In this document: positions 1-64,000 of the stretch, in pieces
How the letters are laid out: each line of letters starts with the position of its first letter
How positions within the stretch are numbered: position 1 is the first letter of the stretch
DNA from: Eledone cirrhosa
Lineage: Eukaryota
Assembly (NCBI GenBank): GCA_964016885.1
Contig: OZ024742.1
Span: 137,392,001 to 137,456,000 of the forward strand
Direction: 5' to 3'
Length of the DNA stretch: 64,000 bases
Position numbers and translations under genes: made by a program
Notes under the pieces: generated by a model
Seen by the model: only the letters and a program-made list of their open reading frames with translations
Told to the model about the DNA's origin: nothing
Databases searched by the model: none

Positions 1-470
1 AATGCAGGCAATGTTTCTATGTTTGGTAGCTGAAATGAAAGGGGTATTGTCGAGGTGGCTGAAAGGACTGAAGGCAGGCATTTTGTACTTCGCCAATACT
101 TCATGAACATTTTCAACATCCACTTGGAAAGAAAAATGTTAGTGGAGAGGTAATTGAGGCACGCCTCCTAGAATATCTGTTAAAAGGTGGTTGAATGTAA
201 CGATGACAGCCCGTGTTATTATGCCTACGCTGACCATGAGCCGGCAACCTGGTTAGTTTGGAGAGTACAGGAGCACCTTCGTACGGAGCTATTGAAGAGT
301 AGGATGCTTTCGGGTGAGAGGGGCTCCAAAGGTACCCTTCTATGATCCGCGCCCATAGGGAATCTTTCATGTTATAACCTTTTCTTATTCGATTTCTTTG
401 TAAACCTCCAGTGTCCATGTTTTATATTGCCCACAACTATGTCGGCCGTTGTGGTAATGAAACAATTCAT
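1..470 (+). mobile_element. Old Tx1-clade LINE, 3' fragment (ORF2 C-terminus + 3'UTR)
   Basis: Aligns by eye with 9000-9490 and 20680-21146: 'ctgaaaggactgaag...cacttggaaagaaaa...gtggagagg', ending 'tatgtcggccgttgtggtaatgaaacaattcatt'. Confidence 0.7.
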
Positions 471-704
471 TAGGCGGATTGGCAGTATCGTAGAGCGTCT
501 AACAACATACTTTGTGACATAGAGGTACAGCCTTTTACTTACGGAGTTTATATCCCGCCGAGGTTAGCTTTGCTTTTCATCATTACAGGGTTAATAAAAT
601 AAAGTACTAGTAATGCACTTGAGCCGATTTATTGAATTTCCCCGTGTTCCAAAATTGTTAGCCCTGTGCCTAAATCAGAAAATATTATTATTATTATTAT
701 TATT
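471..704 (+). mobile_element. tRNA-derived SINE (diverged) with (TTA)n tail
   Basis: A-box-like TGGCAGTATCG, degenerate B-box GAGTTTATATCCC, central 'gcttttcatcattacagggttaataaaataaagtac', tail 'gccctgtgcctaaatcagaaaatattatt'. Confidence 0.8.
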
Positions 705-3700
705 GTTCTTTGAGTCTCAGTCATTGATGTTATTTAACTGGAAAGTTTGTTGAAATGAATATCAAGCCGCTACCTGCAGCCTCAGATATTCAGGACGTAT
801 CGGAGGGTTCTTGCTGTTCCCAGCAAGCATGCCTTTTGAAGTGTTCCAAAAAGCGGGGCGGGGTCAATTTTCTTTAACCATCCTTGGAAACTCTTTGAGA
901 TAGTACCTAGTGCGCCTATGACAATCGGGACCACTCTGACTTCAAGGCAGTTCCAAATCCTTTTTACCTCCCACTTTGAGTCCTGGTATCGGTTAATTTT
1001 CTCCTTCTCCTTTTCTTGCACTCTCGTGTCAAATGGGCAGGCTACATTTACAATCAGGCACGATCTTTTTTCCTTGTCCCAAACCACCAGGTCAGGCCAA
1101 TTGTGTTCTAATGTCTTGTCCGTTTGTATCCTAAAATCCCACAGCGCCTTCACCTGATCGTTTTCTATCACCGACTCTGGCTTATGCTCATACCACTTCT
1201 CAGAATGTGGTAAATTGTTTACTTTGCATAGATGCCAGTGCATCACCCTCCCTATCACATCATGTCTCCAGTCTTTATAGTGAGTCTGGGTTAGGTGTTT
1301 ACACTCGGATACAATTTGAGCCAGTCTCCTCTCTTTCTCTCCACAGATCCTACCTAGTGAGCAAGCCTCCTCCTTGTAAATATATTGTTTCACCAACTTC
1401 GTTTTGAGGGCCTGCTCTTGCGCAGCCATTAGCATTCCTTCTGTAGCCTTTTTAAGGTCTTCTCTTTGTAACCAGTTCCATGTCTGTGGATATCTAAATT
1501 CAGTTTTCCTAAAGAAGGTACTATGAAGGGATTTTTCATGGAGGTTGCTCTTCCTCATTGTTGATATTTCCTCCTTGGCCATCCCCCGGTCTATTGTCCC
1601 TCTCCTTCAGTACAATTCTGAGCATTGGCTCCTTACTATCAGTCACGTATTTGTGTAGGTTGTTTTTCTCCATCTGAACACAGTCCTCTATGCTGATAAG
1701 ACCTCTTCCACCTTCAGATCTCCTTAAGTAGAGTCTATCGACATCACTCCTCTTGTGGAACATGTTGTAGATAGTCAATAGCTTCCTAGTCTTCCTATCC
1801 ATTTCTTTTTGTTCAGCAACATTCCATCTCAGAATTCCCGCACTGTAACTAATAATAGACACAGCTCGATAAGTTACTGCACTTATGGCATTCCTACTGT
1901 TCAGATGTGACCTTAATACGCTACTGACTCTCCGAATGTATTCAGTTCTTATCAATTCCTTCATTTTTTTGTTCTTAATGTCATCAGCTTCCAGAACACC
2001 CAAATAATTGTACCCTTCTTCAGAGTCAATTTCCTTTATCATCTTACCTGTTGGTACCTGGATTCCGTTGCTTCTGCTCAATTTACCCCTCTTCACCACA
2101 AGGACTCCACACTTACTTATACCAAATTGCATACATATATCATTGCTGAAAATACGGACAGTGTAAACAAGCACATCCAACTCCTTCTCACTCTTCTCGA
2201 AGAGCTTAAGATCGTCCATGAAGAGGAGGTGATTGAAGGTAAGCCCTCCCTTTCCCAACCTGTATCCTGCTCTCACTTTTCGCAGTACACTGGTCAGGGG
2301 CATCAGGGCAAGGACAAACAGCAGAAGGGACAGACTATCTCCCTGGAAGATACCTCTCTTGATCTTCACGCTTCCCAAGGATTCTCCAGTTGATGTTAAA
2401 TCTGTTTCCCAGGACTTCATACTTTTGCCCAACAACTGTCTGATGTTATCTGCCACCTTGAAGATCTCCAGGCTTTTGGTGATCCAAGAATGAGGCACTA
2501 TGTCAAATACCTTTTTGTAGTCTATCCATCCCATGGCAAAACCAGTGCATCTCCTCTTGCAATTCCTCATTACCATCTTATCAATAAGTAGCTGGTCCTT
2601 TGTACCACGTGACTTCTTTCGGCATCCTTTCTGTTCGTCCGGTAACAAGTTGTTTGTGTGGGGGTGATGGTAGATTTCCTCAGACACAATGCTCGTCAAC
2701 AGTTTCCATATTACGGACAGACATGTGATAGGTCTATAATTGGTAACATCATTATCCTTGATTCGGTCTTTCATTATCAGATCTGTGTTACCTTTTGTCA
2801 TCCACTCTGGTACCTCACCTGACATCAAGCAGTCATTGAACATGGTTGTCAGTTTCGGGTGGAGGGTTGTTATATTTTTAATCCAATACCCCTGCACACC
2901 ATCTGGGCCTGGTGATTTCCAGTTGGTTAGTGTGTTGGTGTACCTGTTCACTAATCTCCTTCTGTACTGTCTCGATCCACACTGCCTGGTCATTATGTTT
3001 AATATCCTGCTCCCATATTCCTCTCTAGAATGTTTTAGTTTGTTCCGCCTCAGGGATCAAGTCGTTGCCTCTTTCTTTCCCTTCAAGCTGTCCAAACAGC
3101 ATCTTCTGGTTGTTGTCGAACATGCGGTTCTGTCTATACTGACTGACTCTGTTCTCGTATCGCCTGATTTTTGCACTCTTTGCTACAATGCGTTGCTTCA
3201 GTTCCTCTATGATAATATTTAGCTTTTCCTCCTAGTTTTGTTCTTTATTTCCAGTCTATTTTTAGTGTCTATGTTTTTTAGTGTCCCGTTCAGTAGGGAC
3301 TCAAGCTTTCCAATGTCATTTCTCATTTCCCTGATTTGACCACTCAGTCGTTTCTTCCACCAAGGCTCTGATCTTTCTTGTTTGTTGTTTCCTCTCGCTT
3401 TTATACCAAGTAGTTTCTTCACCGTATTTACTGTTGCTTTGAGGATATTGTTGCACTGGTGAAGGCTCCTGGCCTCAAGGTATGGGATGACTTTGTTTAC
3501 CTTAGCTGTTGTTTCTTTTAACTTTTTCCTGTCTACAAATCTTAGGTTCATAGGTCTCCCACTATCATTGTTCAATTCATCTACCACTAAGTTTAGGATA
3601 TCAACCAAATCTTGTCCAAATCTCTCAGCTCAGTTCCTCCAGTTGCAGCTCGCTTATCCACCCATTAGTTCTTATTACCCGAGCCTGCCCGGCCAATTTT

Positions 3701-4257
3701 TGTTCATCTAATTTATATAGACCAATCTCGTTCCAGATGTTATGCATCCGTTTCCTATAGCTTTTCTCCTTGGGTTACTCTTCAGGTAACATTGCATAAC
3801 AGTTCTATTCAATTCTTTCGTCCAGTTGGTTCTGGTCCCTTTCCTTCTTCTTCTTCCTCCGACACCAGCAGTATTTGGTTGACAGCCAGGTCCCTGCTGC
3901 TGAGCCAGGGAGCACTTGTTGGGTGAGAGTCTGTCACATGACAATCTAGTCTCCATTTCACCGTTATTCGAACTGTTTAGGTTCGACATTTAAACACTCT
4001 TATCGAGGATTGGCGAATGTATGGTTACATAACCACCGGTGATTTCATCACCTCCGGTGATTTCGTCACTCCCGATGATTTTTTTGTGGCATTATCACGC
4101 TGTAGACGAACATAAATAAACAAACAAACAAACAGACAAAAGAAACCCCAAAATGAATAAGCATAAGTTTCATTGTAATGTAATGTTTGAATGTCTGACT
4201 TAGGATTTCCCTTCCCTTCTCTGTCCGTCTGTTTGTTTTTCTCTTCATTTTTCTTTC

Positions 4258-4260
<3 letters not shown>
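705..4260 (-). mobile_element. R4/Dong-clade RLE non-LTR retrotransposon (family Dong-A), near full length
   Basis: Single fragmented ORF with RT, zinc-finger and RLE motifs. Flanked on both sides by (TAA)n on its sense strand, the known Dong target. Confidence 0.93.
782..3989 (-). pseudogene. Dong-A ORF (RT + CCHC + restriction-like endonuclease), frameshifted
   Basis: ORF pieces 3708-3989, 3219-3608, 1536-2993, 782-1582: WKSPGPDG, NYRPITCL, QGDSLS, HLLFMDD, RICGE...SEC, RHD, PDLVV...EKINRYQD. Confidence 0.9.

Positions 4261-4329
<69 letters not shown>
4261..4329. repeat. (ATT)n microsatellite between head-to-head Dong and Tx1
   Basis: Pure ATT run. Confidence 0.98.
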
Positions 4330-6051
4330 GGCGACCTACGTAGTAAATCGTATCATCGTGAGCTCCGCAAAGGTTTGTTATTTTCAGTTATTTAAAATTG
4401 CCATTTATGGAAATTTTTTATTGTTAACTGTGTATAAGTGCACATACATTGATTTCTGAAAAGACACTCAAAAATATTGGGGCCTTGAGCCCCAAATTTA
4501 AACTTTTTATAATTATCAAACAAAAAATGTTTTCTTTGCAAAATAATGGATGATACAGATTCACTCCTTCCTCACAATGCAACACCTCACACCGACACCA
4601 CCATTGCAAGCATTGCTACGTTTGCCAACACTGGAATTGTAGGCAGTAGCAATATTTTAAATTTGTCTCAGGCAGACGTTCATTTCCCGCCATTACCAAT
4701 GACTGCAGGTGTTAAAGCCGCCACCAGCACCACCACCACCGCGACAGACACGACCCCCACCACCACCACAGCGGCAACAGAAACAAAAAAAAATTAACTC
4801 ATGATATCGAAATGAATTCAACCAAAATGAACTATTCCACACCGAACACCACTGACGCCGCCACCACCACAACTGAAACTAAAATTAACAATAGCAAAAA
4901 TAACGATAATACCAACAGCAACAATGAAATTAAGAAACCTACCCTGAGTTTTGCGAGAGTAGCAAAAACGTGCGAAGCGATTCAGGTAACTCAGGAGGAA
5001 TTAGTCGAAGCCAAAGGAATGGTAAAGAAAGATGGGTACAGGGTCAGCCTCACCCCCCCCCCCACACACACACACCTAATAAAATGGAGCAACGTCGCCT
5101 ATGCACCGTGTCTTATCGGACAATAAACATAAAATCGCGCCGAGTGGAACGGGCATCTGAGTCCCAAATCCAAAAAGCTTTGGGACATGTGTAGGCAAAG
5201 AAAACCCACATCAGACGTGGGAAGAAGTATGGAACCGTGGACGTGTTCTTTGAAATACCACAGCAGGCAAGAGAACACTCCATGGCCCCATTAAGAAGTG
5301 ACGACTTCACACTCGTCCCAAGCTATTGTGGCCAGAGACTTGTGAAGATCAGGGTGACCCACGTTCCACCGGCCATCGAAATTCCCTGGTTAATGGCTGC
5401 CGTCCTCGCTGGCATCGAGGCGAAAAACCAAAATAATAGAAATAGCAAAGGAAAAGCAGGAGAACTGGTCCGGATCTGGGATGGAGCTCCAGATCCAAGC
5501 GGACCATAAAAGCATTGAAGAGATCCCAGAGGTAATAGACCTCACTGACGGCAGCCACCTCACCGTAATCGTCGAGGGCAGAAGACCTAGGTGTGTCGTT
5601 TGTGGTGAAGGAACCCACCTAAGGGCTTTCTGACCTCAGGCTAAAAGGTTGAGGCCACCTCTCTTACTCACCCCAGTGACTCAACCATCAACACCACCAG
5701 CAGCAGAAATAGCAGCAACAACTATAGCAACAACCCCAGCAACAGTAGCAAAACCAACACCACCACCACCCAACGCCCCAGAACTAGCACCAGCACCTAC
5801 ACCATCCACCACGCCACAACCAAACCCAACGCCTGTTGAGGATTTTCCACTCCCCGGCTTATCCCAACTGGAGACAGATTGTGACGACGAGGAGTGGGAA
5901 ACGGTATCAGGAAAAAAGAGAAAAAAAAGAAATCAAAAAAGAAAAAAATCTCTTCCTTCCCCCTCAAAAAACAAAATACAGAGGGAAACAAATAAATTAT
6001 CGAACAAGAAAGTTAAGACAGATATGCCACCATCCACACCAGCATCACCAA
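4330..6051 (+). mobile_element. Tx1-clade LINE family A: 5'UTR + ORF1, 3' part deleted
   Basis: Starts ggcgacctacgtag right after the ATT tract, same start as 6656. ORF1 from ATG 4546 has a C-x2-C-x4-H knuckle (CVVCGEGTHLRAF), a P/T-rich linker and WETVSGKKRK. Homologous to 51460-53165. Confidence 0.85.
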
Positions 6052-6579
6052 TTACTTGTATCCTTCTTCAGTGTCAATTTCCTTTATCATCTCACCTGTT
6101 GGTACCTGGATACCGTTGCTTCTGCTCAATTTACCCCTCTTCACCACAAGGACTCCACACTTACTTATACCAAATTGCATACATATATCATTGCTGAAAA
6201 TACGGACAGTGTCAACAAGCACATCCAACTGCTTCTCACTCTTCCGGAACAGCTTAAGATCGTCCATGAAGAGGAGGTGATTGATGGTAAGCTGTCCCTT
6301 TCCCATCTTGTATCCTGCTCTCACTTTTCGCAGTATAATGATCAGGGGCATCAGGGCAAGGACAAACAACAGAGGGGACAGACTATCTCCCTGGAAGATA
6401 CCTCTCTTGATCTTCACGCCTCCCAAGGATTCTCCAGCTGATGTTAACTCTGTTTCCCAGGACTTCATACTTTTGCCCAACAACTGTCTGGTGTTAACTG
6501 CCACCTTGAAGATCTCTAGGCTTTTGGTGATTCAAGAATGAGGCACCATGTCAAATTCCTTTTTGTAGTCTATCCATCC

Positions 6580-6580
<1 letters not shown>
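6052..6580 (-). mobile_element. Dong-A internal RT fragment
   Basis: ORF 6052-6504 (QGDSLSPLLF, HLLFMDD) closely matches 2010-2535. Its 5' end abuts (TAA)n. Confidence 0.9.
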
Positions 6581-6646
<66 letters not shown>

Positions 6647-6655
6647 GTTATTATT
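6581..6655. repeat. (ATT)n microsatellite
   Basis: ATT run with one GTT. Confidence 0.98.
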
Positions 6656-9496
6656 GGCGACCTACGTAGGAAATCGTATAATCGTGAGCTCCGCAAACGT
6701 TTGTTATTTTCAGTTGTTTCAAATTGCCATTTATGAAAAATGTTTGTTGTTAAGTGTTTATAAGGTCACATAATTTGCTTTCGGAAAAGGACACTCAAAA
6801 AGATTGGGGACTTGAGCCCAAAATTTAAACTTCTATAATTATCAAACAAAAAATTAGTTTGAAAAAAACATGGACGACTCACAGCTACACCAGCCTGACA
6901 GCCTTCCTCAGCCTAACTCATACCAACACAACCATTGTAAATATTACTACGCTTGCCAAAGCTAAAAATATAAGCAGTAGCAATAATTTAAATGTGTTTC
7001 CTGCAGACATTCATTTCTCGCCATTACCATTGACTGCAGGTGTTGAAGCCGCCACCCCCAGCACCACCACAGCGACAACAGAAAAAAAAAATTCTGTTAT
7101 GACATGGAAATGGGTTCACCTAGAATCGACTCTTCCACACTGAAGACCACTGACGCCACCACCACCACAACTGAAACTAAATATAACAATAACAAAAATA
7201 ACAATAACAACAACAGCAACAACAACAACGCGTCGTTTTCCAAAGAAGCCAAAAAATGCGAAACAAACCAAGTAACTCAGGAGGAATTAGATGAAGCCAA
7301 GAGAATGGAAAAGAAAGATGGGTACAGGGTCAGACTCCCCCCTCCCCTGAAGCTAATCAAATGGAGCATCGTCACCAATGCACCGTGTCTTATCGGACGA
7401 TTAACATAAAATCGCGCCGAGTGGAACGGGCATCTGTGTCCCAAATCCAAAAAGCTTTGGGACATGTGTGGGCAAACAAAACCCATATCAGACGTGGGCA
7501 GAAATATGGAACCGTGGACGTGTTCTTTGGAAAGCCACAGGAGGCGGGAGAGCACTCCATGGCCCCATTAAGAAGCGACGACTTCTCACTCGTCCCAAGC
7601 TATTGTGGCCAGAGACTCGTAAAGATCAGGGTGACGCACGTTCTACTAGCCATCGAAATTCCCTGGATAATGGTTGCCGTCCTCGCCGGCATCGAGGCCA
7701 AGACCAACATAATAGAAATAGCAAAAGAAAAGCAGGAGAACTGGTTCGGATCAGGGATGGAGCTCCTGATCGAAGCGGACCAAAAAAGCATTGAGGAGAT
7801 CCCAGAGGTATTAGAGCTCACTGACGGCAGCCACCTCATCGTAATCGTCGAGGGTGAAAGGCCTAGGTGTGTCGTTTGGGGTGAAGTAACCCACATCATG
7901 CGCTCGGTCCGCCAAGGATGTCCCCTCTCGTTTCTCTTGTACGTATTGACTCTCGAGCCATTACTGCACAAACTGGAGATGTTGAGGGGCGCCCGCGCGA
8001 ACTAGGATGCGGAAGATCCGTGTCAGCATATGCGGACGATGTCACCGTAGTGGTGTCGAACGCCAAACACATCGAGGCGATCGGCACTACACTGAGAGAA
8101 TACGAAGCGGTGACAGGAGCAATGATCAACCAGAAAAAGTCAGTGGGCATGCAGCTCGGCACCTGGAGAGGCAGGTCCATGTCGTCCAACAGAGTCGTCG
8201 GGCGCTGGACGGACGGACCGGTTAAATTTCTCGGGGTCTGGTTCGGTCCGGAACTCCAGACGGACAAAAATTGGGATGAGGTGATAAGCAGTGTGGTTTC
8301 TCTCACCCAGAAATGGGCCGAGAGGAAGCTATCCCAGAAAGGTAGAGCGGAGGTGGCTAACGCGTATATCGCGTCCGTCATCTACTACCGCCTGACAGTC
8401 GTACCTTGTCCTAAGGCCCGCCTGACTGCGCTAGAGCGTTTGCTCTTTCGATTTTTGTGGAAGGAATGCGCTGCGATGGTCAGGCGGTCCATCTACTGTC
8501 AACATCCCCTACGTGGAGGGCTGGGAATGCCGTGGCTGATGATGCGCAGACATGCGCTCAGGCTACGACATATCCACCTCTTCCTCGACGGTGATCAGGT
8601 GTGGTCGCCGTTTGCTAGACGCGTCTTTCCCCAGGTCGTCTCCTTGACGGAGCTGCAGTCCTGGGTCAAGCGAAGACCGAGAGGGAGCGCTTGGAGACTG
8701 GAATGTCTTCAGGCTTTCACAGCCCTCGACCAATCGAGCAATGTGATCGGTGGAAACTCCACCTTGGCGTTTTATAGAGGATTAGTGGAGGGGATGAGTG
8801 ACGACGTACTTGGGGAAAACTCTAGGCGTCGTCGAAAATCAACTAGCCAATCTCTTCGGAAGAACTTTCGGGCCGGGGCCTATGGACAACTTCCAGTAAT
8901 ACTTGGCCTGGCAGTGCTACCGGGGAGCTTTGCCAGTTAGGGTTAAACTCTACAGGCATGGAGGTGCCTGCCCTCTTCCTTTAGCCGGTAAGGGCAGGCA
9001 GTTTTTATCTGTCTGGTGGCCATGGCGAAAGAGATAGTATGGTGGACACGTTTGAAAGGGCTGAAGACGAGCACTTATCTCTTCCGTGATGCCCTGATTA
9101 ACTTTTTCAAATTTCATTTAAAAAGGAAAATCAGGGTAGAAAGGGAAGTGCTCTCTTCCCAGCATTTTGTTGAAAGATGTGTAAGAGAGGCAAGAATGGC
9201 CCGAGTGAATGGGCCTACTCTGAGTATGTGTCTGTAAATTAAAGGTGGAAAACTGGGAGAGGGCACTTGCCTTGGTGGTCAGGGTCATTGTGGCTTTTTA
9301 ATGGGCTTTCTCCATGAATGTCCCTCGGAAGTATCCCCCCTATTGGGACATTTTATCATTGTTCTATTATTACATCCTCTGTTTCTTGTTTCTTACACGC
9401 AGAAATGCCCATTTGTACCGTCCTGTATTGTAATGTACTGTCCTTAATGTCTACTTTATGTAAACCCTTGTGGTTAATAAAGAAATCATTATTATT
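6656..9496 (+). mobile_element. Tx1 family A copy with both termini and a large internal deletion (ORF1 knuckle fused to RT)
   Basis: ORF 7361-8005 runs from CVVWGEVTH straight into IMRSVRQGCPLS. ORF 7918-8940 has SAYADD and GGLGMPWL. 3' end 'cccttgtggttaataaagaaatcattatt'. Confidence 0.9.
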
Positions 9497-9914
9497 GTTC
9501 TTTGAGTCCTATTATTATTATTATTACTATTATTATTATTATTATCATGGAAGTAGACACGTCACAGGAAATTTCGTTCCCGTAAGATTTTATTGCAAAC
9601 TTAATGCAAAAATATATTGTTTTGTGTTAACACAGTGGTCGAAATTGATCGGTATTTAGCCCTTCGGGTCTCATTCCAATTTCAACTTTGCATTTAGCAA
9701 ATACATCCCATCGTGGAAGTATACACGTCGCCATAAAAAAAGAAATTTTGTTCCCGTAATTTTGTGATTTTGAACAGTTTTATTGCGCACCTGATGTAAA
9801 AATCATATTATTTTGTGTGTAAACACACCCACTTCATTTTAAGTGGTCGAAATTAATCGGTATTTAGCCCTTCGGGGCTAAATCCCAATTTGAACTTTGC
9901 ATCTAGCAAAGAAA

Positions 9915-11994: not shown

Positions 11995-12025
11995 TCTTTT
12001 CTCACTTGCCCAGTTCCTCACCAAC

Positions 12026-14965: not shown

Positions 14966-15218
14966 GCGAGAGGGCGCTTGGCCGTGGTCTTTTGTGTGGT
15001 TTTCGCCCTGATTGACACTCGGAGGCTTCCCCCTTATTGGGGTATTTTTATTGTTTGAATTTTAATATATTTTACACGTTTGTGTTTTTATAACCTTTTA
15101 ATACGGCCAAAATCCCACTTTGTATCGTCTTGTGCCGTTTGTAATGTGTTTCTTCATGATAGCCCTTGTGGCCAATAAAGAAACCATTATAATAAAAATA
15201 ATAATTATTATTATTATT

Positions 15219-15282
15219 GTACTGGATAATTGCTGGACTTGTGCCAAAAGTAGAAACAATTATTATTATTATTATTATTATT
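15219..15282 (+). mobile_element. 5'-truncated SINE 3' end in an ATT tract
   Basis: 'gtactggataattgctggacttgtgccaaaagtagaaacaattatt' matches the SINE terminus. Confidence 0.8.
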
Positions 15283-15496
15283 GAGTCTGAACTTTTTTTC
15301 TTTTTTCTCGCTTTCGTAAGTTTATTTATTTACCAGTCAAAACTTATTTATTGAATTTTTTGTTGTTGTGTAAGGCATATAAGCCCTTGGACTTTGCCCT
15401 GTGAAGGGGAAACAATAATATTTGGGCCTTTTGGCCCAAATATTTGAACTCTTTTACATTTTAAAAAATTATCGAAAAAAACAAAAACAAAAAAAC

Positions 15497-17427: not shown

Positions 17428-17459
17428 ACTTTTCCTCTCTCTCTGTTTAACCTGCCAAC

Positions 17460-45606: not shown

Positions 45607-45617
45607 TCTTCATACGT

Positions 45618-45811: not shown

Positions 45812-45820
45812 TTCATACGT

Positions 45821-46344: not shown

Positions 46345-46430
<86 letters not shown>

Positions 46431-48148: not shown

Positions 48149-48204
<56 letters not shown>

Positions 48205-53165: not shown

Positions 53166-53185
53166 AAAGATTAAATTTTGTTTTC

Positions 53186-56100
53186 AAAAATTGGCTGGGC
53201 AGGCTCGGGTAATAAGAACTAATGGGTGGATAAGCGAGCTGGAACTGGAGGAATTGAGCAGAGAGATTAGGTTGGAAATGGAGAGTGGAGTATGCCAGGC
53301 AAACGAGCCAGTGGAAAATGAAGATGAAGCGGTTGAGGGAACGGAGGAACCATCCGAAGCAGACAATGATCTGAATGCTGGAATAAATAATACCTGGAAC
53401 AAAGATACGGCCATTGAGGTGATGAATGCCGACGGGCTAGGAAAACATTTGGTTGATATCCTAAACTTAGTGGTAGATGAAATGAACAATGATAGTAGGA
53501 AACCTATGAACTTAAGATTTATAGACAGGAAAAAGTTAAAAGAAACAACAGCTAAGGTAAACAAAGTCATCCCATACCTTGAGGCGAGGAGCCTTCACCA
53601 GTGCAACAATATCCTCAAAGCAACAGCAAATGCGGTGAGGAAATTACTTGGCATAAAAGCGAGAGAATACAAAAAACAAGAAAGATCAGAACCTTGGTGG
53701 AAGAAACGACTGAATAGACATATCAGGGAAATGAGAAATGACTTGGAAAGCTTGAGTCCCTACTGAAGTGGACACTAAAAAACATAGACCCTAAAAATAG
53801 ACTGGAAATAAAGTACAAAACTTGGAGGAAAAGGCTAAATATTATCATAGAGGAACTGAAGCAACGCATTGTAGCAAAGAGTGCAAAAATTAGGCGATAC
53901 GAGAGCAGTGTCAGTCAGTATAGACAGAACCGCATGTTTGACAACAACCAGAAGATGTTGTTTGGACAGCTTGAAGGGAAAGAAAGAGGCAACGACTTGA
54001 TCCCTGAGGCGGAACAAACTAAGACATTCTGGAGAGGAATATGGGAGCAGGATGTTAAACATAATGACCAGGCAGTGTGGATTGAGACAGTACAAAAGGA
54101 GATTAGTGAACAGGCACACCAACAAACTGATTTGAGTATCACAGTTGAAATTCTTAAGAGGCAGGCCGAAAAACTAACAAACTAAAAATCACCAGGCCCA
54201 GATGGTGTGCAGGGGTATTGGATTAAAAATGTAACGTCCCTCCACCCGAAACTGACAGCCATGTTCAATGACTGCTTGATGTTAGGTGAGGCACCAGAGT
54301 GGTTGACAAAAAGTACCACAGTTCTGGTAATGAAAGACTGAATCAAGGGTAATGATGTTACCAACTATAGACCTATCACATATCTGTCCGTAATGTGGAA
54401 ACTGTTGACAAGCATTGTGTCTGAGGGAATCTACCATCACCTCCACACAAACAACTTGTTACCGGACGAACAGAAAGGATGCCGAAAGAAGTCCCGTGGT
54501 ACAAAGGACCAGTTACTTATTGATAAGATGGTAATGAGGAATTGCAAGAGGAGACCCATTGATCTTGCCATGGGATGGATAGACTACAAAAACGCATTTG
54601 ACATGGTGCCTCATTCTTGGATCACCAAAAGTCTAGAGATCTTCAAGGTGGCAGATAACATCAGACAGTTGTTGGGCAAAAGTAGTAAGTATGAAGTCCT
54701 GGAAAACTGATTTAACATCAGCTGGAGAATCCTTGGGAGGCGTGAAGATCAAGAGAGGTATCTTCCAGGGAGATAGTGTGTCCCCTCTGTTGTTTGTCCT
54801 TGCCCTGATGCCCCTGACCATTATACTGCGAAAAGTGAGAGCAGGATACAAGTTGGGAAAGGGAGACCTTACCATCAATCACCTCCTCTTCATTGACGAT
54901 CTTAAGGTCTTCGGGAAGAGTGAGAAGGAGTTGGATGTGCTTGTTGACACTGTCCGTATTTTCAGCAATGATATATGTATGCAATTTGGTATTAGTAAGT
55001 GTGGAGCCCTTGTGATGAAGATGGGTAAATTGAGCAGAAGCAACGGAATCCAGGTACCAACAGGTGAGATGATAAAGGAAATTGACACTGAAGAAGGATA
55101 CAATTATTTGGGTGTTCTGGAGGATGATGACATCAAGAATAAAAATATGAAGGAATTGATAAGATCTGAATACATTCGGAGAGTAAGGAGCGTATTAAAG
55201 TCACATCTGAACTGTAGGAATGCCATAAGTGCAGTAAATTCCCGAGCTGTGTCTATTATTAGGTACAGTGCGGGAATTCTGAGATGGAATGTTGCTGAAC
55301 AAAAAGAAATGGATAGGAAGACTAGGAAGCTATTGACAATCTACAACATGTTCCACAAGAGGAGTGATGTCGATAGACTCTACTTAAGGAGATCTGAAGG
55401 TGGAAGAGGTCTTATCAGCATAGAGGACAGTGTTCAGATGCAGAAAAACAACCTGCACAAATACGTGACTGATAGTAAGGAGCAAATGCTCAGAACTGTA
55501 CTGAAGGAGAGGACAATAGACCAGGGGATGTCCAAGGAGGAAATAACAACAAGGAGAAAGAGCAACCTTCATGAAAAATCCCCTCATAGTAACTTCTTTG
55601 AGAAAACTGAATTCAGAGATCCACAGACATGGAACTGGTTGAAAAGAGGAGACCTTAAAAAGGCTACAGAAGGAATGTTAATGGCTGCTCAAGAGCAGCC
55701 CTCAAAACGAAGGGGTTGAAACACCATAATTACAAGGAGGAGGCTAGCCCACTGTGACGGATCTGTGGAGAGAGAGAGGAGACTGTGGCTCACATTATAT
55801 CCGAGTGTAAACACCTAGCACAGACTCACTCAAAGGGCTAGAGACATGATGTCATGGGCAGGGTGATCCACTGGCACCTATGCAAAGTAAACAATTTACC
55901 ACATTCTGAGAAGTGGTATGAGCATAAGCCAGAGGCGGTGATAGAAAACCATCAGGTGAAGGTGCTGTGGGATTTTAGGATACAGACGGACAAGAAACTG
56001 GAACACAATAGACCTGACCTGGTGGTTTTGGACAAAGAAAAAAGATCGTGCCTGATTGTGGATGTGGTCTGCCCATTCGACACGGGAGTGCAAGAGAAGG

Positions 56101-56422
56101 AGAGGGAGAAAATTAACCGATACCAGGACTTAAAGTGGGAGGTAAAAAGGATTTGGAACTACCATGAAGTCAAAGTGGTCCCGATTGTCATAGGCGCAAT
56201 AGGTACTATCTCAAAATGTTTCCAGGGATGGTTAAAGAAAATTGGCCCCGCCACGCTTTTTGAAACGCTTCAAAAGGCATGCCTGCTGGGAGCAGCAAGA
56301 ACCCTCCGATACGTCCTGAATATCTGAGGCTGCAGGTAGTGGCTTGATATTCATTTCAACAAACTTTCCAGTTAACTAACATCAATGATTGTGACTCAAA
56401 GAACAATAATAATAATAATAAT
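53186..56422 (+). mobile_element. Dong-A, 5'-truncated, with (TAA)n tail
   Basis: Closely matches the reverse complement of 705-3705. RT 54691-55719, RLE 55854-56327, end 'gactcaaagaacaataataat'. Confidence 0.93.
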
Positions 56423-59400
56423 TAAAAAATGAATTAAAATGAACCATGTGTCAGTGAAAACGCGGTAAATTGTAACAAAATGAAGCATGCGTCAGTGAAA
56501 ATGAGGTAAATTGTAACACCTCGAATCCCAGGGTTTAGGCGGAATCACTGACAACAGACCAAATTAAAGAAAGGATCGAAAAAGTGGTGGGAGTGCATGC
56601 TCAAGATGAAACTCCAAATGAAAACAATGAGATCGTAAATGATAAAGAAATGTTTGAGAATGAACTTGCCAACTTGAAGGATGAAATTATGATCGAATGG
56701 ATGAAAATGAAAGAATCTGACATGGGGGAACGAGACACCCTCCCTAAGATCCAGAACTCCAAACAGAACCAAAAGATAATACACAAGACTAACATAATTC
56801 TCAAAAACATTATCATCACAAACAAACTAAACATTACTGATTTAAATCATCTCTATTAGGCATTGGCTAAAGTCACCACTCACTTATGTGGAGTGAAAAT
56901 GAAAAAACAAAGGAATTCCCACAAGAAATCTACTTGGCAAGAGAACATCAATCGCCAAATAAACCTTCTCCGATCTGACATAGAAATGTTAACAAACTAC
57001 AAAGTAGGTGAACATGTTAAACAAACTAAACTTAGAAAATTGAAAAGAAAATACAGTATAAAATCAACAAGTGACATAGATATGCTGATAGAAATAATAA
57101 GCAAAAAGTGTCGGCCAAAGCTGCTCGTATAAGGCGCTTTGAAAAACGATCTAGATTCTATAAGAACAATAATATGTTCAAAAGCAACCAAAGAAACTTC
57201 TACAGAAAAATTGGCAAGTCAACAATAACTGCTAAATCAATACCACCCAAGGAGGAAGTGCAAGAATTCTGGGAAAAGATCTGGGCCGAAGAAAAAGTTC
57301 ATAATATACATGCCCCATGGATAGACAGACAAATGAAAGATACAGCTCACCTTGAGGAACAGATATGGGAAAATAATAGAAAAACCAGCAAATGGAAATC
57401 CCCAGAAAAAGACAAAACGCCAAATTTTTGGATAAATGCCTTCACAGAGTCTCATGAGCTGTTAGCCCAACTTCACAATGAAATAGTTAAGGAGCCAGAA
57501 AAGATACCATCATGGCTAGATAACGGCATTACATTCCTGCTTCCGAAGAATGACGAGACAAACAATCCCCAAAATTACAGACCGATAACTTGCTTGACCA
57601 CAATGTATAAAATGTTAACATCAGTCCTAACTGAATATACATATGACCACCTGATAACAAATGACCTATTTCCCAATGAGCAGAAAGGGTGTAAACGAGG
57701 CTCATATGTCTGTAAGGATCAGCTTTTGGTTAACAAAATGATACCGGAAGATTGTCATAATAGACACAAAAATCTATCAATTGCTTGGATAGATTATAAA
57801 AAAGCATTCCATAGTTTTCCACAGTTGGATTGAAAAATGTTTAGAGATTTTCAAAATATCTCCCATTGTCAGGGGGTTCTTGTCATTCAGTATGAAGACA
57901 TGGAAAACGACACTCCTTTTGAATAGTGAAACAAAATCACTGGAAGTTGGAGACGTTAATATTAATTGTGGAATTTTTCAGGGTGACTCTTTATCACCGC
58001 TTTTATTCTGCATCGCGCTTATACCATTAAGTAAAATGCTCAATGAAACAAAACATGCATATAAAGTCTATGACAAAACCATTAATCACTTGTTCTACAT
58101 GGATGACCTGAAACTATTTGAAAAAAATGATGAACAATTGCAAGGGCTATTATCCACTGTGGAGCAGTTCAGTGATGACATTAAAATGGAGTTTGGACTA
58201 GATAAATGCGCCAAAGCAACGTTCACCAGAGGAAAGCTGCTGAAAAGTTCAGACATTAATCTTGATCGGGGGAATGTGATAAGAGAACTTGATCAAGAGG
58301 AAAATTACAAATATCTAGGTGCTTGTGAAGGAGATGGAATCAAGCACTCGACAATGAGGGAAAGGATAAGGAAGGAATGTTACCGCAGAGTAAGACCAAT
58401 CTTAAGAACGGAATTGAAAGCAAGGAATAGGATCGATACCATAAACACGCTTGCCATACCAGTAGTAACCTTTAGTTACACTGTGATCAACTGGTCAAGC
58501 ACAGAGTTCCGTAGGCTCGATACAAAAATCCGAAAATTCTTAACCATGCACAGAATGCAACACCCTAAGGCAGATACATATAGAATATATCTCCCTAGGA
58601 AAGAAGGAGGACGTCGGTTAATCCAGTTAGATATTGCGTTGAAAACTGCAACAATTGGATTATCTACATATCTAAGGGAATCACATGATTGGATGATCAA
58701 ACTCGTTTTGAAACACGAAAGCATCAAAAGATAATACTCCATTACAAAAGATGCACAAAGATACAGTGATGGACTACAAATTTCAGAAGTCCCATTTACT
58801 GCTGAAATGGAAAACACAGAAAAAGCAAAGCAGGTAAAAGTAACTGCAAAGAAAGAACTGCTACAGAAACTGGCTAAGAAATGGCAGGAAAAGCCTCTGT
58901 ATGGAAAATACCCAGAAAGAGCTAACAATCCTGATGTTGACAAAAGTTTAACCCATCAGTGGTTGGCATCCTCTGAACTGAAATCGGAGACTGAAGGACT
59001 GATTATATCAGCACAAGATCAGTGTCTGTCAACAAAAAATGACCAAGCCAACATAATAAAAAATGGATGCAACCCATTATGCCGTGTATGTAAAAATCAA
59101 CCAGAGACCATTGATCATATAATTTCAATGTGTAGTCCTATAGCTCCAACCGAATACCTAAGCAGGCATGACAGAGCTGCACAATACATACATTGGATAA
59201 TGTGTAAGCATTTTGACCTGCCCCATCAAAAGAATTGGTGGGAGCATCAACCACCCACCTTACTTGAAAAAGATCACATCTCCAGCTTGTCGTACTTTAG
59301 CATACAAACAGACCGAAAAATAGATGCAAATAGACCTGATATAATATTGAAGGACTTTAAAAAGAGGGTATGCCTGCTAATTGATATGTCCGTTCAAATT

Positions 59401-59807
59401 GACAAGAATGTATCTATAAAAACATTTGAAAAATTGAGCAAGTATAAGGACCTGGAGATAGAAATTGGAAAAATGTGCAAATTGAGAACTAAAACAATAC
59501 CAGTGGTTGTAGGCGCTCTAGGAATGATACCTAAGGGGTCTAACGATTACTTTTCGCAAATCCCAGGAAACCCGCGTATAGGAGAAATACAAAAGATAAT
59601 ACTAATGGGAACTACCCATACACTAAGGAAGATTCTGTCAATATAAGTACAACACAAGTCTAAACACCTAAAGTTGCATGTGTGTGTATGTATGTTCTTA
59701 CTTGAACATGGCGGACATTGTTGTCTCTTGAGGACACTGGTTGTGACTTGGTGATATCACAAGGGCCGATATCTAGGGGAAATACAAAGACAGGGAATAA
59801 AAATAAA

Positions 59808-59838
<31 letters not shown>
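56423..59838 (+). mobile_element. Second R4/Dong family (Dong-B), with (TAA)n tail
   Basis: ORF pieces 57108-57833 (NYRPITCL), 57880-58734 (QGDSLSPLLF, HLFYMDD) and 58807-59646 (CRVC...HIISMC, RHD, NRPDII, EKLSKYKDL). Inserted in the tail of Dong-A. Confidence 0.92.
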
Positions 59839-59839
<1 letters not shown>

Positions 59840-62094
59840 CTTCTTTATTGGCCACAAGGGCTGACATCAAGAAAAACATTACAGACGGCACAGGACGGTA
59901 CAGGACGGTACGATGTGGGTTTTGTTCGTGTAAAGATGTTTATTATTTATATAAGAAAGGAAAAAGAAACAGTCATAGAAACATATATACATATTAAAAA
60001 AAAAAATGAAAATTGAAACAATGAAAAATTCCCCAATAGGGGGGAAACCTCCGAGGGTTACTCGTGGCGAAAACCACACAAAAGACCACGGCCACCCTTA
60101 CCACCAGAGCAAGCGCCCTCTCTCATGTTTGCCATTTCTCAAACTACAGGCGTATATTCAGAGTGGTCCCGTTCACTCGGACCATTCTCGTTACATTCAC
60201 CCACCTTTCAACAAACTTGCTAGAAAGCAGCACTTGCCTCTCCACCCTGATTTTCCTCTTCAAGTGAAACTTGAATAAGTTAATTAGGGATTGGCCGAAG
60301 AGGAAAGTGTATGTATTTAACCCTTTCAACCTTGTCCATCACACAATCTCTTTCTCCATGGCCACCAGGCACATGAAAACCGCCTGCTCCTCCTCCTCGA
60401 GGGAAGACGGCGAGACCATCTGCACTATGGACTAAGTCGATAAGCGGATCAGTCCTACACGCGACAGTAACTGTTCGACATAGCTCCACAAGTCAGAAAT
60501 GCTCGGGCACTGAACGAGTGCGTTAAAGATGGTTTCGTCGCTCTGCGCGCATCTCGGACAGGCTCGACTGACGGCACTTCGTACCTGTAGAGCTTATCTT
60601 GAACCAGCAACGCTCCCCGGTAGCACTGCCAGGCCAGGGATTTTTGGAAGTTATCCATAGGCCCTGGGCTGAAAGTTCTCCGGAAGAGAGCAAACAGCTG
60701 ATCTTCTTCGACGCCCAGGATCTCTCCGAGAACGTCGTCGCTCTTCCCCTCCATGAGTCCTCTATAGAACGCCAAGGTGGATGTTCCACCGATACTGGTG
60801 CCCGGCTGGCAGAGGGCAGTGTGCGCCTGGAGACATTCCAGTTTCCAAGCGCTATCCTTCGGTCTTTTTCTGACCCAGTACTGCAGCTCCGTCAAGGAGA
60901 CGAGCTGTGGGAAAACGTTCCTGGCGAACGGCGACCACACCTGTTCACCGTCAAGGAAGCAGCAGAGATCTCGCAGCCTCAGCGCATGTTTGCGCATCAT
61001 CAGCCAAGGCATGCCCAGTCCTCCACGAAACGGGTGTTGACAGCAGATGGATCGTCTGACCATGGGAGCGCGTCCCTTCCACATAAAGCGGAAAAGGAGG
61101 CGCTCCATTTTGGTGAGAGTTGGGCCGGGGCAAGGGACGACGGTGATGCGGTAGCAGATGACGGACGCGATGTACGCATTTGCCACCTCCGCCCGGCATT
61201 TCAGGGACAGTTCCTCTCGGCCCAGTTCTGGGTGAGGGAGGCCACCTTGCTCGTCATCTCGCTCCAGTTTTTCTCCATCTGGAGTTCCACTCCGAACAAG
61301 ACCACGAGCAATTTAACCGGTCCTTCCGTCCAGCACCCCATTATGCTGTCGGACGGCATGGCTTTGCCTCTCCAGGTGCCGCGCTGCAAGTCTACCGACT
61401 TTTCCTGGTTTAGCTTTGCACCTGTCACCGCTTCGTATTCCTTGAGAGCGGTGGCGAGCATTTCGACTTGTCTGGTGCTCAGCACCACCACGGTAACGTC
61501 CTCAGCGTAAGCCGACTCGGATTTCCCGCATCCTAGTTCGCGTGGGACACCCCTCATCGCCCCCAGTTTGTGCAGTAATGGCTCGAGAGCCAATACGTAC
61601 AAGAGGGAAGAGAGGGGTAAACACTGGCGGACTGAGCGCATGATGCTGAACGGCTGCGACAGGTGACCGTTCACCCTCACAACTGAGCAGATGTCGCTGT
61701 ACATTGCTGCGATCCAACGCCTGAAAACGGGCCCGAAACCGGCTGCCTCGAGGACCGCCGCCAGGTACCGATGGTCGACCCTATCGAATGCTTTGGATTG
61801 ATCCAAGTTGATCAGGGCCCCACCGTTGCCAGGTTCCTTAACAACCCTCTCTATGATGTATCGCATGAGGTGGAGGTTGTCGTGTATGGATCTGTCCGGA
61901 ATGGCGTATGTCTGCGCCTCTCCCACCAGACCCTTGAAGACAAGCGCCAACCTCGTTGCTAACACCTTGGCCAAAATCTTGAACACTGCATTTAGCAGGG
62001 TTATGGGCCTGAAATTATCAATAACATCCCCCTTGATCGGGTCTTTTCTCAGCAGCGCCACTGCTCCCCGGCTCACAAAACTGGGAATGCTCCC
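59839..62094 (-). mobile_element. Tx1 family B-like, 3' half (RT to tail)
   Basis: ORFs 61201-62154 and 60455-61186 (KRPKDSAWKLE and GGTSTLAFY, as in 14480-15058). Tail 'gcccttgtggccaataaagaagtcattatt'. Confidence 0.92.
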
Positions 62095-62098
62095 ATAT

Positions 62099-62706
62099 AG
62101 ACTCACTATAAGGGCTGGAGACATGATGTGATTGGCAGGGTGATCCACTGGCACCTATGCAAAGTAAACAATTTACCACATTCTGAGAAGTGGTATGAGC
62201 ATAAGCCAGAGTCGGTGATAGAAAACGATCAGGTGAAGATGCTATGGGATTTTAGGATACAGACGGACAAGAAACTGGAACACAATAGACCTGACCTGGT
62301 GGTTTTGGACAAGGAAAAAAGATCGTGCCTGATTGTGGATGTGGCCTGCCCATTCGACACGAGAGTGCCAAAGAAGGAGAGGGAGAACATTAACCGATAC
62401 CAGGACTTAAAGTGGGAGGTAAAAATGATTTGGAACTGCCATGAAGTCAAAGTCGTCCCGATTGTTATAAGCGCACTAGGTACTATCTCAAAATGTTTCC
62501 AGGGATGGTTAAAGAAAATTGGCACCGCCACGCTTTTTGGAACGCTTCAAAAGGCATGCTTGCTGGTAACAGCAAGAACCCTCCGATACGTCCTGAATGT
62601 CCGAGGCTGCAGGTAGTGGCTTGATATTCATTTCAACAAACTTTCCAGTTAACTAACATCAATGACTAAGACTCAAAGAAAAATAATAATAATAATAATA
62701 ATAATA
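62099..62706 (+). mobile_element. Dong-A 3' fragment (RLE domain + 3'UTR + TAA tail)
   Basis: ORF 62128-62616 NRPDLVVLDKEK...INRYQDL. Confidence 0.92.
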
Positions 62707-62707
62707 A

Positions 62708-64000
62708 CCCCAAGAGTAACCCCAAGGGAAAAGGCTATAGGAAACGGAAGCATGACATCTGGAACAAGATTAGTATATTTAAATTAGATGAACAAAAATT
62801 GGCCGAGCAGGCTCGAGTAATAAGCACTAATGGGTGGATAAGCGAGCTGGAACTTGAGGAACTGAGCAGATAGATTAGGTTGTAAATGGAGAGTGGAGTA
62901 TGCCAGGCAAACGAGCCAGTGGGAAATGAACGTGAAGAGGTTGAGGGAACGGAGGAACCATCCGAAGCAGACAATGATCTGAATGCTGAAATAAATAATA
63001 CCTGGAACAAAGATACGGCCATTGAGGTGATGAATGCCGACGGGCTAGGAAAACATTTGGTTGATATCCTAAACTTAGTGGTAGATGAAATGAACAATGA
63101 TAGTAGGAAACCTATGAACTTAAGATTTATAGACAGGAAAAAGTTAAAAGAAACAACAGCTAAGGTAAACAAAGTCATCCCATACCTTGAGGCGAGGAGC
63201 CTTCACCAGTGCAACAATATCCTCAAAGCAACAGCAAATGCGGTGAGTAAATTACTTGGCATAAAAGCGAGAGAATACAAAAAACAAGAAAGATCAGAAC
63301 CTTGGTGGAAGAAACGACTGAATAGACATATCAGGGAAATGAGAAATGACTTGGAAAGCTTGAGTCCCTACTGAATGGGACACTAAAAACATAGACACTA
63401 AAAATAGACTGGAAATAAAGTACAAAACTTGGAGGAAAGGCTAAATATTATCATAGAGGAACTGAAGCAACGCATTGTAGCAAAGAATGCAAAAATTAGG
63501 CGATACGAGAGCAGAGTCAGTCAGTATAGACAGAACCGCATGTTTGACAACAACCAGAAGATGTTGTTTGGACAGCTTGAAGGGAAAGAAAGAGGCAACG
63601 ACTTGATCCCTGAGGCGGAACAAACTAAGACATTCTGGAGAGGAATATGGGAGCAGGATGTTAAACATAATGACCAGACAGTGTGGATTGAGACAGTACA
63701 AAAGGAGATTAGTGAACAGGCACACCAACAAACTGATTTGAGTATCACAGTTGAAATTCTTAAGAGGCAGGCCGAAAAACTAACAAACTGAAAATCACCA
63801 GGCCCAGATGGTGTGCAGGGGTATTGGATTAAAAATGTAACGTCCCTCCACCCGAAACTGACAACCATGTTCAATGACTGCTTGATGTCAGGTGAGGCAC
63901 CAGAGTGGTTGACAAAAAGTACCACAGTTCTGGTAATGAAAGACTGAATCAAGGGTAATGATGTTACCAACTATAGACCTATCACATATCTGTCCATAAT
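62708..64000 (+). mobile_element. Dong-A, 5'-truncated, running off the window
   Basis: Near-identical to 53186-54393 and starts right after a TAA tract. Confidence 0.92.

What the first reader, a model, noticed from the sequence alone, without database searches (positions are those of the whole stretch)
1..64000. Shared-target system: Dong (RLE) and Tx1 (APE) LINEs plus a SINE occupy the same TAA/TTA microsatellite in strictly opposite orientations
Seen: in the left cluster (ATT on +), all 5 Tx1 copies and the SINEs are + and both Dong copies are -. In the right cluster (AAT on +), both Tx1 copies are - and all 4 Dong copies are +. The old Dong ending near 44370 (+) carries a SINE in - orientation. 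I see no exception. Established: Dong targets (TAA)n, and Tx1-clade microsatellite specialists exist (Kibi on TC, Koshi on TTC). I do not know of a (TTA)n-specific Tx1. Inference: unrelated endonucleases nick opposite strands of one repeat, and each insertion adds a new tail that serves as a target, giving self-seeding 15-20 kb arrays.
Basis: partly seen in the sequence, partly recalled or inferred. Interest (0 to 1): 0.75.

Follow-up and report, generated by a model that had tools for sequence, protein, structure and literature searches.

The report
Two jumping genes share ATT repeats
In this genome, likely an octopus relative's, two unrelated kinds of jumping gene sit in the same ATT/AAT repeat facing opposite ways and stack into chains, likely because each starts copying from a different strand and leaves repeat on both sides, while a small hitch-hiking element needs only one or two ATT units.

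Summary
In the window all 7 APE-type L1-group LINEs (probably Tx1) read with (ATT)n; all 6 Dong/R4-type copies, plus a 14-nt stub, read with (AAT)n. Genome-wide, 2135 of 2288 Tx1-B heads have (ATT)3 directly upstream (background 0.05%). There are 293 opposite tail-to-tail junctions against 0 same-strand Dong-tail/Tx1-head junctions. 5'-truncated copies also often start in the tract, so it is a target, not an encoded head. Correction 1: the SINE is not microsatellite-specific; it uses a short ATTA(T) site with a 14-19 bp duplication and seeds no tracts. Correction 2: rare exceptions exist (1 of 63 Dong/Tx1 pairs). In 600 kb of evenly spaced DNA, 14 of 18 long tracts flank these LINEs, which supports self-feeding arrays. 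Strand-specific nicking is inferred, not shown; tail-primer pairing would give the same polarity. The arrangement resembles TRAS1/SART1 in telomeric repeats, and Dong on TAA is known. I found no (ATT)n-targeting Tx1 in the papers searched (Repbase not searchable). This scan found the same system five times before on other pieces of this genome. Verdict: real; a new variant of a known kind.

The parts
1..470 (+). 3' end of an old Tx1-type LINE (begins about 990 bp before the window)
   Evidence: 66-73% to family D copy
474..683 (+). SINE
   Evidence: 78% to the copy at 21166
684..704 (+). (ATT)7 tract, SINE 3' end to Dong 3' end
705..4260 (-). Dong/R4-type LINE family A, 5'-truncated; RT, CCHC finger, RLE
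   Evidence: RVT_1 4e-21; translation; 93% to a longer copy
4261..4329 (+). (ATT)23 tract, Dong head to Tx1 head
4330..6051 (+). Tx1-type family B: 5' leader and ORF1, 3' part lost
6048..6580 (-). Dong A RT fragment; 5' junction in the tract, 3' part lost, fused to Tx1 ORF1 without a tract
   Evidence: 94% to the copy at 705
6581..6655 (+). (ATT)22 GTT (ATT)2 tract
6656..9494 (+). Tx1-type family B with internal deletions; ends AATAAA..(ATT)n
9497..9510 (-). 14-nt Dong A 3' stub inside the tract
   Evidence: read from sequence; matches Dong 3' ends
9511..9545 (+). interrupted (ATT)n tract
9546..15203 (+). Tx1-type family C, full span, broken ORFs; leader of ~170-200-nt repeated units
15204..15282 (+). 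(ATT)5, 40-nt SINE 3' stub, (ATT)8
15283..21142 (+). Tx1-type family D, full span; APE and RT, broken ORFs
   Evidence: Exo_endo_phos 4e-10, RVT_1 4e-11
21143..21367 (+). (ATT)4, SINE (21166-21352), (ATT)5
42891..44274 (+). decayed R4/Dong-like remnant; weak; ends uncertain
   Evidence: tblastn E 7e-5 and 2e-7 to Dong2
44380..44552 (-). SINE behind the decayed remnant
48286..53164 (-). Tx1-type family B with internal deletions and lost 5' leader; tail of only 2-3 units
53185..56404 (+). Dong A, fused head-to-head to the Tx1 without a tract
56405..56422 (+). (AAT)6 tract
56430..59797 (+). Dong/R4-type family 2, 5'-truncated; RT, CCHC finger, RLE
   Evidence: RVT_1 1e-14; 90-93% aa to an intact copy
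59808..59837 (+). (AAT)10 tract, Dong tail to Tx1 tail
59838..62094 (-). Tx1-type family E, 5'-truncated
   Evidence: RVT_1 3e-23
62099..62681 (+). Dong A 3' fragment, head-to-head with the Tx1 without a tract
62682..62705 (+). (AAT)8 tract
62706..64000 (+). Dong A, 5'-truncated; continues beyond the window to an (AAT)6 tail and an old Tx1 on -

Best explanation
Several APE-type L1-group LINE families (probably Tx1) sit in (ATT)n with their sense strand on the ATT strand, two RLE-type Dong/R4 families sit in the same repeat on the AAT strand, and both likely insert by target-primed reverse transcription from opposite strands of the tract. SHOWN: both kinds carry the tract at head and tail, in fixed orientation and, for full-length Tx1-B, in one fixed phase; truncated copies often start in the tract too; most long tracts in the sampled genome flank these LINEs. 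INFERRED from standard TPRT: Tx1 RNA ending in (AUU)n primes on a nick in the AAT strand, Dong RNA ending in (AAU)n primes on a nick in the ATT strand, and the polarity follows. INFERRED: a staggered cut of about 14-19 bp (measured only for the SINE) would leave at least 5-6 units on both sides, so each insertion turns one target into two and arrays grow. The SINE likely borrows a Tx1-type enzyme (similar 3' end, same strand) but lands at any ATTA(T) and creates no tracts.
For: Tx1-B: 2135 of 2288 exact heads have (ATT)3 directly upstream; 30 of 30 best hits; 43 of 45 heads in my loci have 5 or more perfect units. Family D 28 of 30; family C 19 of 22 distinct heads. Dong: 24 of 29 heads taken in genome order follow (AAT)3 or more; 22 of 29 adjoin another member, none in the wrong orientation. 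Junctions: 293 Tx1-tail/Dong-tail against 0 DongA-tail/Tx1-B-head. Tract-side tally in the fetched loci: Dong termini 174 AAT, 0 ATT; Tx1 termini 196 ATT, 4 AAT; Dong/Tx1 pairs 62 opposite, 1 same. Truncated 5' junctions in a tract of 3 or more units: Tx1 17 of 35, Dong 30 of 47; background 33 of 8128. Where a Tx1 head follows a SINE, that SINE already sat in a tract in 10 of 11 cases, against 5 of 30 ordinary SINEs with 3 or more units. Evenly spaced 600 kb: 14 of 18 tracts of 5 or more units flank Tx1 or Dong. Stop-free natural ORFs with catalytic motifs exist: Tx1-B ORF2 1152 aa, Dong2 1071 aa.
Against: No biochemistry; nick sites are inferred. 15 of 35 truncated Tx1 junctions have no tract within 24 nt: some are inversions, deletions or alignment overrun, some look like SINE-type ATTAT sites. 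So specificity is strong, not absolute. Exceptions: L005 (Tx1 and Dong2 on one strand), a 41-nt Tx1 stub at an AAT tract, L251 (Dong head behind (ATT)5), and 3 of 29 Dong heads behind (AAG)n or (AATGAT)n. Most loci were chosen by element-end searches, not at random. The 14 LINE-flanking tracts of the spaced sample come from only 5 of 60 regions. The duplication length of the LINEs themselves could not be read inside perfect repeats. SINE/Tx1 3'-end likeness is modest: family D 5 of 1000 shuffles, C 19, E 63, B 507. Tx1-clade placement has only SH-aLRT 82 on a quick tree with proxy references.
Confidence: 0.8

Rival explanations
1. Both endonucleases nick either strand of the tract; polarity and tract preference come from pairing of the RNA's repeat tail with the freed primer, so the enzymes need not be strand- or microsatellite-specific. 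The SINE, with almost no repeat tail, would show the bare enzyme preference (ATTA).
For: The SINE uses the same strand and a similar 3' end but only a 4-6-nt site. Some truncated Tx1 copies sit at SINE-like sites (L046, L066). RNA/target annealing improves accuracy in SART1 (PMC7265360 passages).
Against: Endonuclease swaps move specificity between TRAS1 and SART1, and target choice is said to rest mainly on the endonuclease (PMC4494074 passage). The SINE's partner may be another, relaxed family.
Confidence: 0.3
2. The 5' tract of full-length copies is carried by the element (transcription starting in the upstream repeat), or tracts are made at insertion; the true target is only a short ATTAT site.
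For: Full-length Tx1-B junctions have one exact phase. Flanking tracts are long (median about 12 units), while free tracts of 5 or more units are rare (3 in 600 kb).
Against: 5'-truncated copies also start in tracts. SINEs that host a Tx1 already had a tract on their far side in 10 of 11 cases. I saw no unique-sequence duplication around the 20 full-length copies read by eye.
Confidence: 0.1
3. Arrays reflect survival in tolerant regions or local duplication, not targeting.
For: Some junctions are deletions and copies are rearranged.
Against: Selection or duplication would not give base-exact ATT|head junctions in 2135 copies on many contigs with unrelated flanks, nor family-specific strand choice.
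Confidence: 0.03

Closest known systems
TRAS1 and SART1 (R1 clade, Bombyx mori) in (TTAGG/CCTAA)n
   Same: Two LINE families insert in one simple repeat in opposite directions and recognise only 2-3 units (PMC7265360, passages).
   Different: Both are APE-type relatives and the target is telomeric. Here an APE-type and an RLE-type element share a dispersed microsatellite at thousands of sites.
Dong, DongAg, DongBg (R4 clade)
   Same: TAA microsatellite target (PMC3812793, passages); single ORF with RT, CCHC finger and RLE; Dong-R4 is reported as abundant and recently active in Octopus vulgaris (PMC13282606).
   Different: Bombyx Dong has an HDV-like 5' ribozyme (PMC3774820, passages); I found none here. 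Two families with only 33-58% aa identity share one ~690-nt leader.
Kibi (TC)n, Koshi (TTC)n and crocodilian Tx1 (TTCC/TTTC)n
   Same: Microsatellite-specific APE-type LINEs of the Tx1 clade (PMC4494074, passages).
   Different: Target unit is ATT. The octopod lineage is not sister to my fish Tx1 proxy on a quick tree (weak support), so the habit may have arisen separately.
SINEU with Tx1-Mar
   Same: A SINE carried by a target-specific Tx1; two SINEU families show much weaker preference (23% and 13%) than the third.
   Different: Here the SINE shares a 3'-end likeness with the LINE and uses a 4-6-nt site; the partner is not proven.
Shared 5' extremity of ingi and L1Tc, and of Nimb and RTE families
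   Same: Unrelated LINEs share only a short 5' segment (PMC4758252 section 10), like the ~16-30-nt motif common to Dong and Tx1 C/D heads.
   Different: The function of the motif here is untested, and it spans the APE/RLE divide.

Membership tests
L1 group (APE-type LINE) | ORF2 with N-terminal APE, RT and C-terminal CCHC finger, no RNase H | tested here: met
   Exo_endo_phos 9e-14, RVT_1 1e-28, zf-RVT 6e-8 and no other Pfam family; best solved relative human L1 ORF2p, 2e-52
Tx1 clade | Groups with Tx1-clade references on an RT tree, apart from vertebrate L1 | tested here: inconclusive
   Quick tree: falls with an Oryzias Tx1-like proxy and a Stylophora 'TX1'-named protein at SH-aLRT 82; Xenopus L1 proxy outside. 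Tx1L, Kibi and Koshi themselves were not available.
Tx1 clade | ORF1 with a gag-like CCHC knuckle (feature recalled, not from a call) | tested here: met
   C-x2-C-x4-H-x4-C in family B ORF1; no Pfam ORF1 family above cut-off
Tx1 clade | Target preference (over 20% of flanks of one type, criterion in PMC4494074) | tested here: met
   93% of 2288 family B heads; 28 of 30 family D; 19 of 22 family C
R4 clade / Dong | Single ORF: RT, CCHC finger, PD..D/K RLE | tested here: met
   Stop-free 1071-aa ORF with YMDD, C-x2-C..H..C, PD..D and K-x2-KY-x2-L; aligns through the RLE of R2 proteins, 3e-27
R4 clade / Dong | Insertion in (TAA)n on the sense strand | tested here: met
   174 of 174 true termini beside a tract read AAT; 24 of 29 heads in genome order
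R4 clade / Dong | Groups with Bombyx Dong or Ascaris R4 on an RT tree | not testable with these tools
   No named Dong or R4 among the 120 best homologues
R4 clade / Dong | 5' HDV-like ribozyme as in Bombyx Dong | tested here: inconclusive
   No Rfam ribozyme hit; a relaxed home-made descriptor hit 1 of 32 Dong heads; it was not checked on a known ribozyme
SINE mobilised by these Tx1 families | Shared 3' tail with the LINE | tested here: inconclusive
   5 (D), 19 (C), 63 (E) and 507 (B) of 1000 shuffles reach the score; Dong controls 307 and 519
SINE mobilised by these Tx1 families | Same target specificity as the LINE | tested here: not met
   Same strand and core, but 25 of 30 young copies and 31 of 40 copies in the spaced sample have at most 2 units

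The most novel reading that the evidence does not exclude
An octopod lineage holds the first Tx1-type LINE specific for (ATT)n, and it has converged with an unrelated RLE LINE on the two strands of one microsatellite. Between them they now make and hold most long ATT tracts of a 3-Gb genome and share a short 5' control motif. One APE enzyme gives strict repeat targeting in cis but near-free ATTA targeting for its SINE, which would make RNA-tail length the switch for microsatellite specificity.
Probability: 0.25. Interest if true: 0.68.

Novelty: new variant of a known kind. Interest (0 to 1): 0.47.

Why it matters
It gives a natural, genome-wide test of what sets LINE target choice: two unrelated endonuclease types, one three-letter target, opposite strands, stop-free natural copies of both proteins, and a SINE that seems to use a Tx1-type enzyme with much looser specificity. 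It also bears on genome structure. About 6% of the sampled DNA is these LINEs, and most long ATT tracts sampled are their linkers, so microsatellite content and repeat hotspots in this animal would be partly self-made. The mechanism class (TPRT into simple repeats, opposite-facing families) is already known, which caps the surprise.

Tried and rejected
RNA evidence: no RNA holder listed; no reads were laid, so this says nothing on expression. Ribozyme at the heads: Rfam and a relaxed HDV descriptor (1 of 112 heads) gave nothing convincing. Spliced copies at the GTAAGT in the shared motif: 47 of 60 heads read GTAAGT and the other 13 are one- or two-letter variants, none a jump. Relatives with flanks elsewhere: the metagenome scan gave only distant relatives (nearly all 25-36% identity), and none of the 13 of 80 loci checked had an ATT tail. 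Named Dong/R4 references: none. tRNA head of the SINE: ARAGORN found none. A Dong '5' end' query proved to be a truncation point; true heads came. The family E head pattern caught Dong-internal sequence and those rows were ignored. The careful tree did not finish; the quick tree is reported. SINE tails as seeds of new tracts: rejected.
Full report
Setting. The window is G000:C3:137392001-137456000 in a 3.0-Gb genome. The closest named relative of the APE-type RT is from Argonauta hians, 73% identical, so the host is probably an octopod (inference). I did not try to identify the assembly.

The window. ORFs, repeats, Pfam and self-BLAST show two stacks. The left one runs from about 1 kb before the window to 21,367: five APE-type LINEs and three SINE pieces on +, two Dong-type copies and a 14-nt Dong stub on -, joined by (ATT)4-23. 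The right one runs from 48,286 to about 2 kb past the window: two APE-type copies on -, four Dong-type copies on +, joined by (AAT)6-10. There is no exception inside either stack. Three junctions lack a tract and look like deletions or direct fusions. The 'old Dong' near 44.3 kb is only weakly supported (E 2e-7). SINEs between the stacks lie on both strands.

What the elements are. A stop-free family B ORF2 of 1152 aa elsewhere in the genome has APE, RT and zf-RVT and is closest to human L1 among solved structures; ORF1 has a CCHC knuckle. The best named hit of a 690-aa piece is a 'Transposon TX1 149 kDa' protein. On a quick tree of 41 RT rows, families B and E and the Argonauta protein form one branch (99), inside a weakly supported group (82) with a fish Tx1-like proxy, with an L1 proxy outside. 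'Tx1' is therefore likely, not proven. Dong2 has a stop-free 1071-aa ORF with RT, CCHC and RLE motifs that aligns to R2 proteins through the nuclease. Dong A and Dong2 share only 33-58% of residues over aligned pieces. The name Dong rests on architecture and target; no named reference was available.

Is the tract a target? An exact 24-mer of the family B head occurs 2288 times (reversed control 0), and 2135 of these (93%) have (ATT)3 directly upstream in one phase. The background is 29 of 56,932 positions. The 30 best hits, one being the window copy, all have the tract with unrelated flanks beyond it; 43 of 45 heads in my loci have 5 or more perfect units. Family D: 28 of 30. Family C: 19 of 22 distinct heads, three internal repeat units dropped. 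For Dong, the first 30 genome-order hits of a leader 16-mer gave 29 Dong heads: 24 follow (AAT)3 or more, 2 follow (AAG)n, 1 (AATGAT)n, 1 (ATT)5 and 1 no tract. Truncated copies with intact 3' ends test whether the tract is only an encoded head. For Tx1, 22 of 57 rows were internal breaks and were dropped; of 35 left, 17 start in 3 or more units, 3 in two units and 15 in none. For Dong, 7 of 54 were dropped; of 47 left, 30 start in a tract and 17 do not, 7 of those 17 being breaks caused by my reference copies. The matching background is 33 of 8128. Where a Tx1 head follows a SINE, the SINE has 4 or more units on its far side as well in 10 of the 11 cases the script found. So the tract was there first.

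Polarity. Exact patterns give 293 Tx1-tail/Dong-A-tail junctions and 0 Dong-A-tail/Tx1-B-head junctions on one strand. Over 419 distinct tracts in loci L001-L220 and the window, Dong termini read AAT 174 times and ATT never. Tx1 termini read ATT 196 times and AAT 4 times; two of the four are point-mutated tails. Neighbour pairs: Dong/Tx1 62 opposite and 1 same; Dong/Dong 31 same; Tx1/Tx1 21 same and 1 opposite; Dong/SINE 11 opposite; SINE/Tx1 24 same and 2 opposite. These loci were chosen by element-end searches, so they show the rule but not genome frequencies.

The SINE. Among 30 close copies, the 3' flank starts with 1 unit in 10, 2 in 15, 3 in 4 and 5 in 1. An exact direct repeat was found in 28 of 30, always starting ATTA, 14-19 bp long in 18 of 28 (two rows are one tandem locus). 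In the spaced sample 31 of 40 intact ends have at most 2 units. The SINE thus uses the Tx1 strand and core but is no microsatellite specialist, and its 'tail' is the target duplication. Its last 60 nt resemble the ends of families D and C more than shuffles do (5 and 19 of 1000), but not B or Dong. A Tx1-type partner is likely but unproven.

Arrays. Five stacks chosen for closely spaced Tx1-B heads show the same design over about 14-28 kb, two of them with local inversions or a switch of tract strand. Of 29 Dong heads in genome order, 22 adjoin another member. In 60 evenly spaced 10-kb pieces, tracts of 5 or more units number 18: 14 beside a LINE, 1 beside a SINE, 3 free; at 3 or more units the counts are 16, 16 and 65. 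The 14 come from only 5 pieces, so the estimate is rough. Still, most available long targets are flanks of earlier insertions, and that is about enough to explain the two-thirds neighbour rate without extra attraction (inference). If the LINEs' staggered cut equals the SINE's, each side keeps 5-6 units, which matches the shortest common tracts seen (inference).

Mechanism. By standard TPRT (established knowledge) the primer strand is the complement of the RNA's 3' end, so (AUU)n and (AAU)n tails must prime on opposite strands. Any two sequence-specific families on one asymmetric repeat have an even chance of facing apart, so polarity alone is not surprising. Whether the enzymes nick one strand only, or the tail selects among nicks, cannot be told from sequence.

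A side result. Dong A and Dong2 share a ~690-nt leader at 83%. A 16-mer in it is identical in Tx1 family D heads; the family C head aligns to it with score 67 against at most 46 in 500 shuffles over 150 nt, and more weakly over 400 nt. The 16-mer occurs 2092 times (control 5). It holds a splice-donor-like GTAAGT, but no spliced copy and no ribozyme was found.

Literature. TRAS1 and SART1 insert in telomeric repeats in opposite directions (PMC7265360, passages). Dong targets TAA; Kibi TC; Koshi TTC (PMC3812793, passages). Crocodilian Tx1 target TTCC/TTTC, and SINEU preference can be weak (PMC4494074, passages; its supplements could not be read, and the target labels of its Fig. 3 are not in the text, so an ATT entry could be hidden there). 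Bombyx Dong has a 5' ribozyme (PMC3774820, passages). An Octopus vulgaris repeat paper lists active Dong-R4 and L1-Tx1 without targets (PMC13282606, parts 1-2 of 3). Also seen as passages: PMC4640811, PMC10294476, PMC4758252 (with section 10 whole), PMC3747384 and PMC3472496. Kojima and Fujiwara 2004 and Xiong and Eickbush 1993 were not read. Searches found no (ATT)n-targeting Tx1 and no Tx1/Dong shared target. The library lacks most subscription papers and Repbase, and I have an unverified recollection that Repbase-based lists of Tx1 targets include further trinucleotide repeats, possibly ATT.

Earlier scan notes. Five unreviewed notes describe the same system on other pieces of this genome, and one describes a Tx1-like Dong leader. 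They are not independent support; my counts above stand on their own calls.

Verdict. Real and genome-wide; a new variant of a known kind; interest 0.47.

Noticed in passing
window 15307-15322 and 9570-9600; L246-L275 at 1501-1516: A 16-30-nt motif with a GTAAGT core lies 25-55 nt from the 5' end of Tx1 families C and D and of both Dong families; 2092 exact copies in the genome. Function unknown; promoter element or splice donor are leads.
   Followed up: partly
L218:3640-4330; L205-L206 join: Dong A and Dong2, with 33-58% aa identity, share a ~690-nt leader at 83% nt identity, suggesting a leader swap.
   Followed up: partly
L074:2107-2151; L089:2593-2622: The Dong2 leader carries an embedded SINE 3' stub on its own strand in several copies.
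   Followed up: no
window 6050, 53170, 62096; L078, L081, L180, L274: Direct Tx1/Dong fusions without a tract, mostly head to head; deletion is the simple reading, two-RNA priming from both strands was not excluded.
   Followed up: partly
L003, L078, L217: Tx1 copies with inverted 3' pieces, like twin-priming products.
   Followed up: no
window 9546-9900: The family C leader is built of ~170-200-nt tandem units, each with a hairpin closed by TTCG; families B and D have a hairpin at a similar place.
   Followed up: partly
window 21115-21142, 9470-9490: Tx1 3' ends carry AATAAA 6-7 nt before the (ATT)n tail, so cleavage would fall inside the downstream tract (inference from sequence).
   Followed up: no
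window 45405-46015: Three tandem SINE copies on - separated by the same ~17-nt spacer, like repeated insertion into one target duplication.
   Followed up: no
window ~40930-41700: Sequence on - that looks by eye like the 3' part of another LINE (RTE-like, from recall); not matched by the Tx1 or Dong queries.
   Followed up: no
L255, L260, L272: 3 of 29 Dong heads follow (AAG)n or (AATGAT)n instead of (AAT)n: relaxed targeting or later drift of the tract.
   Followed up: no
window 21367-21439; L033, L034, L042: (ATT)n tails often run on into (AGT)n tracts.
   Followed up: no
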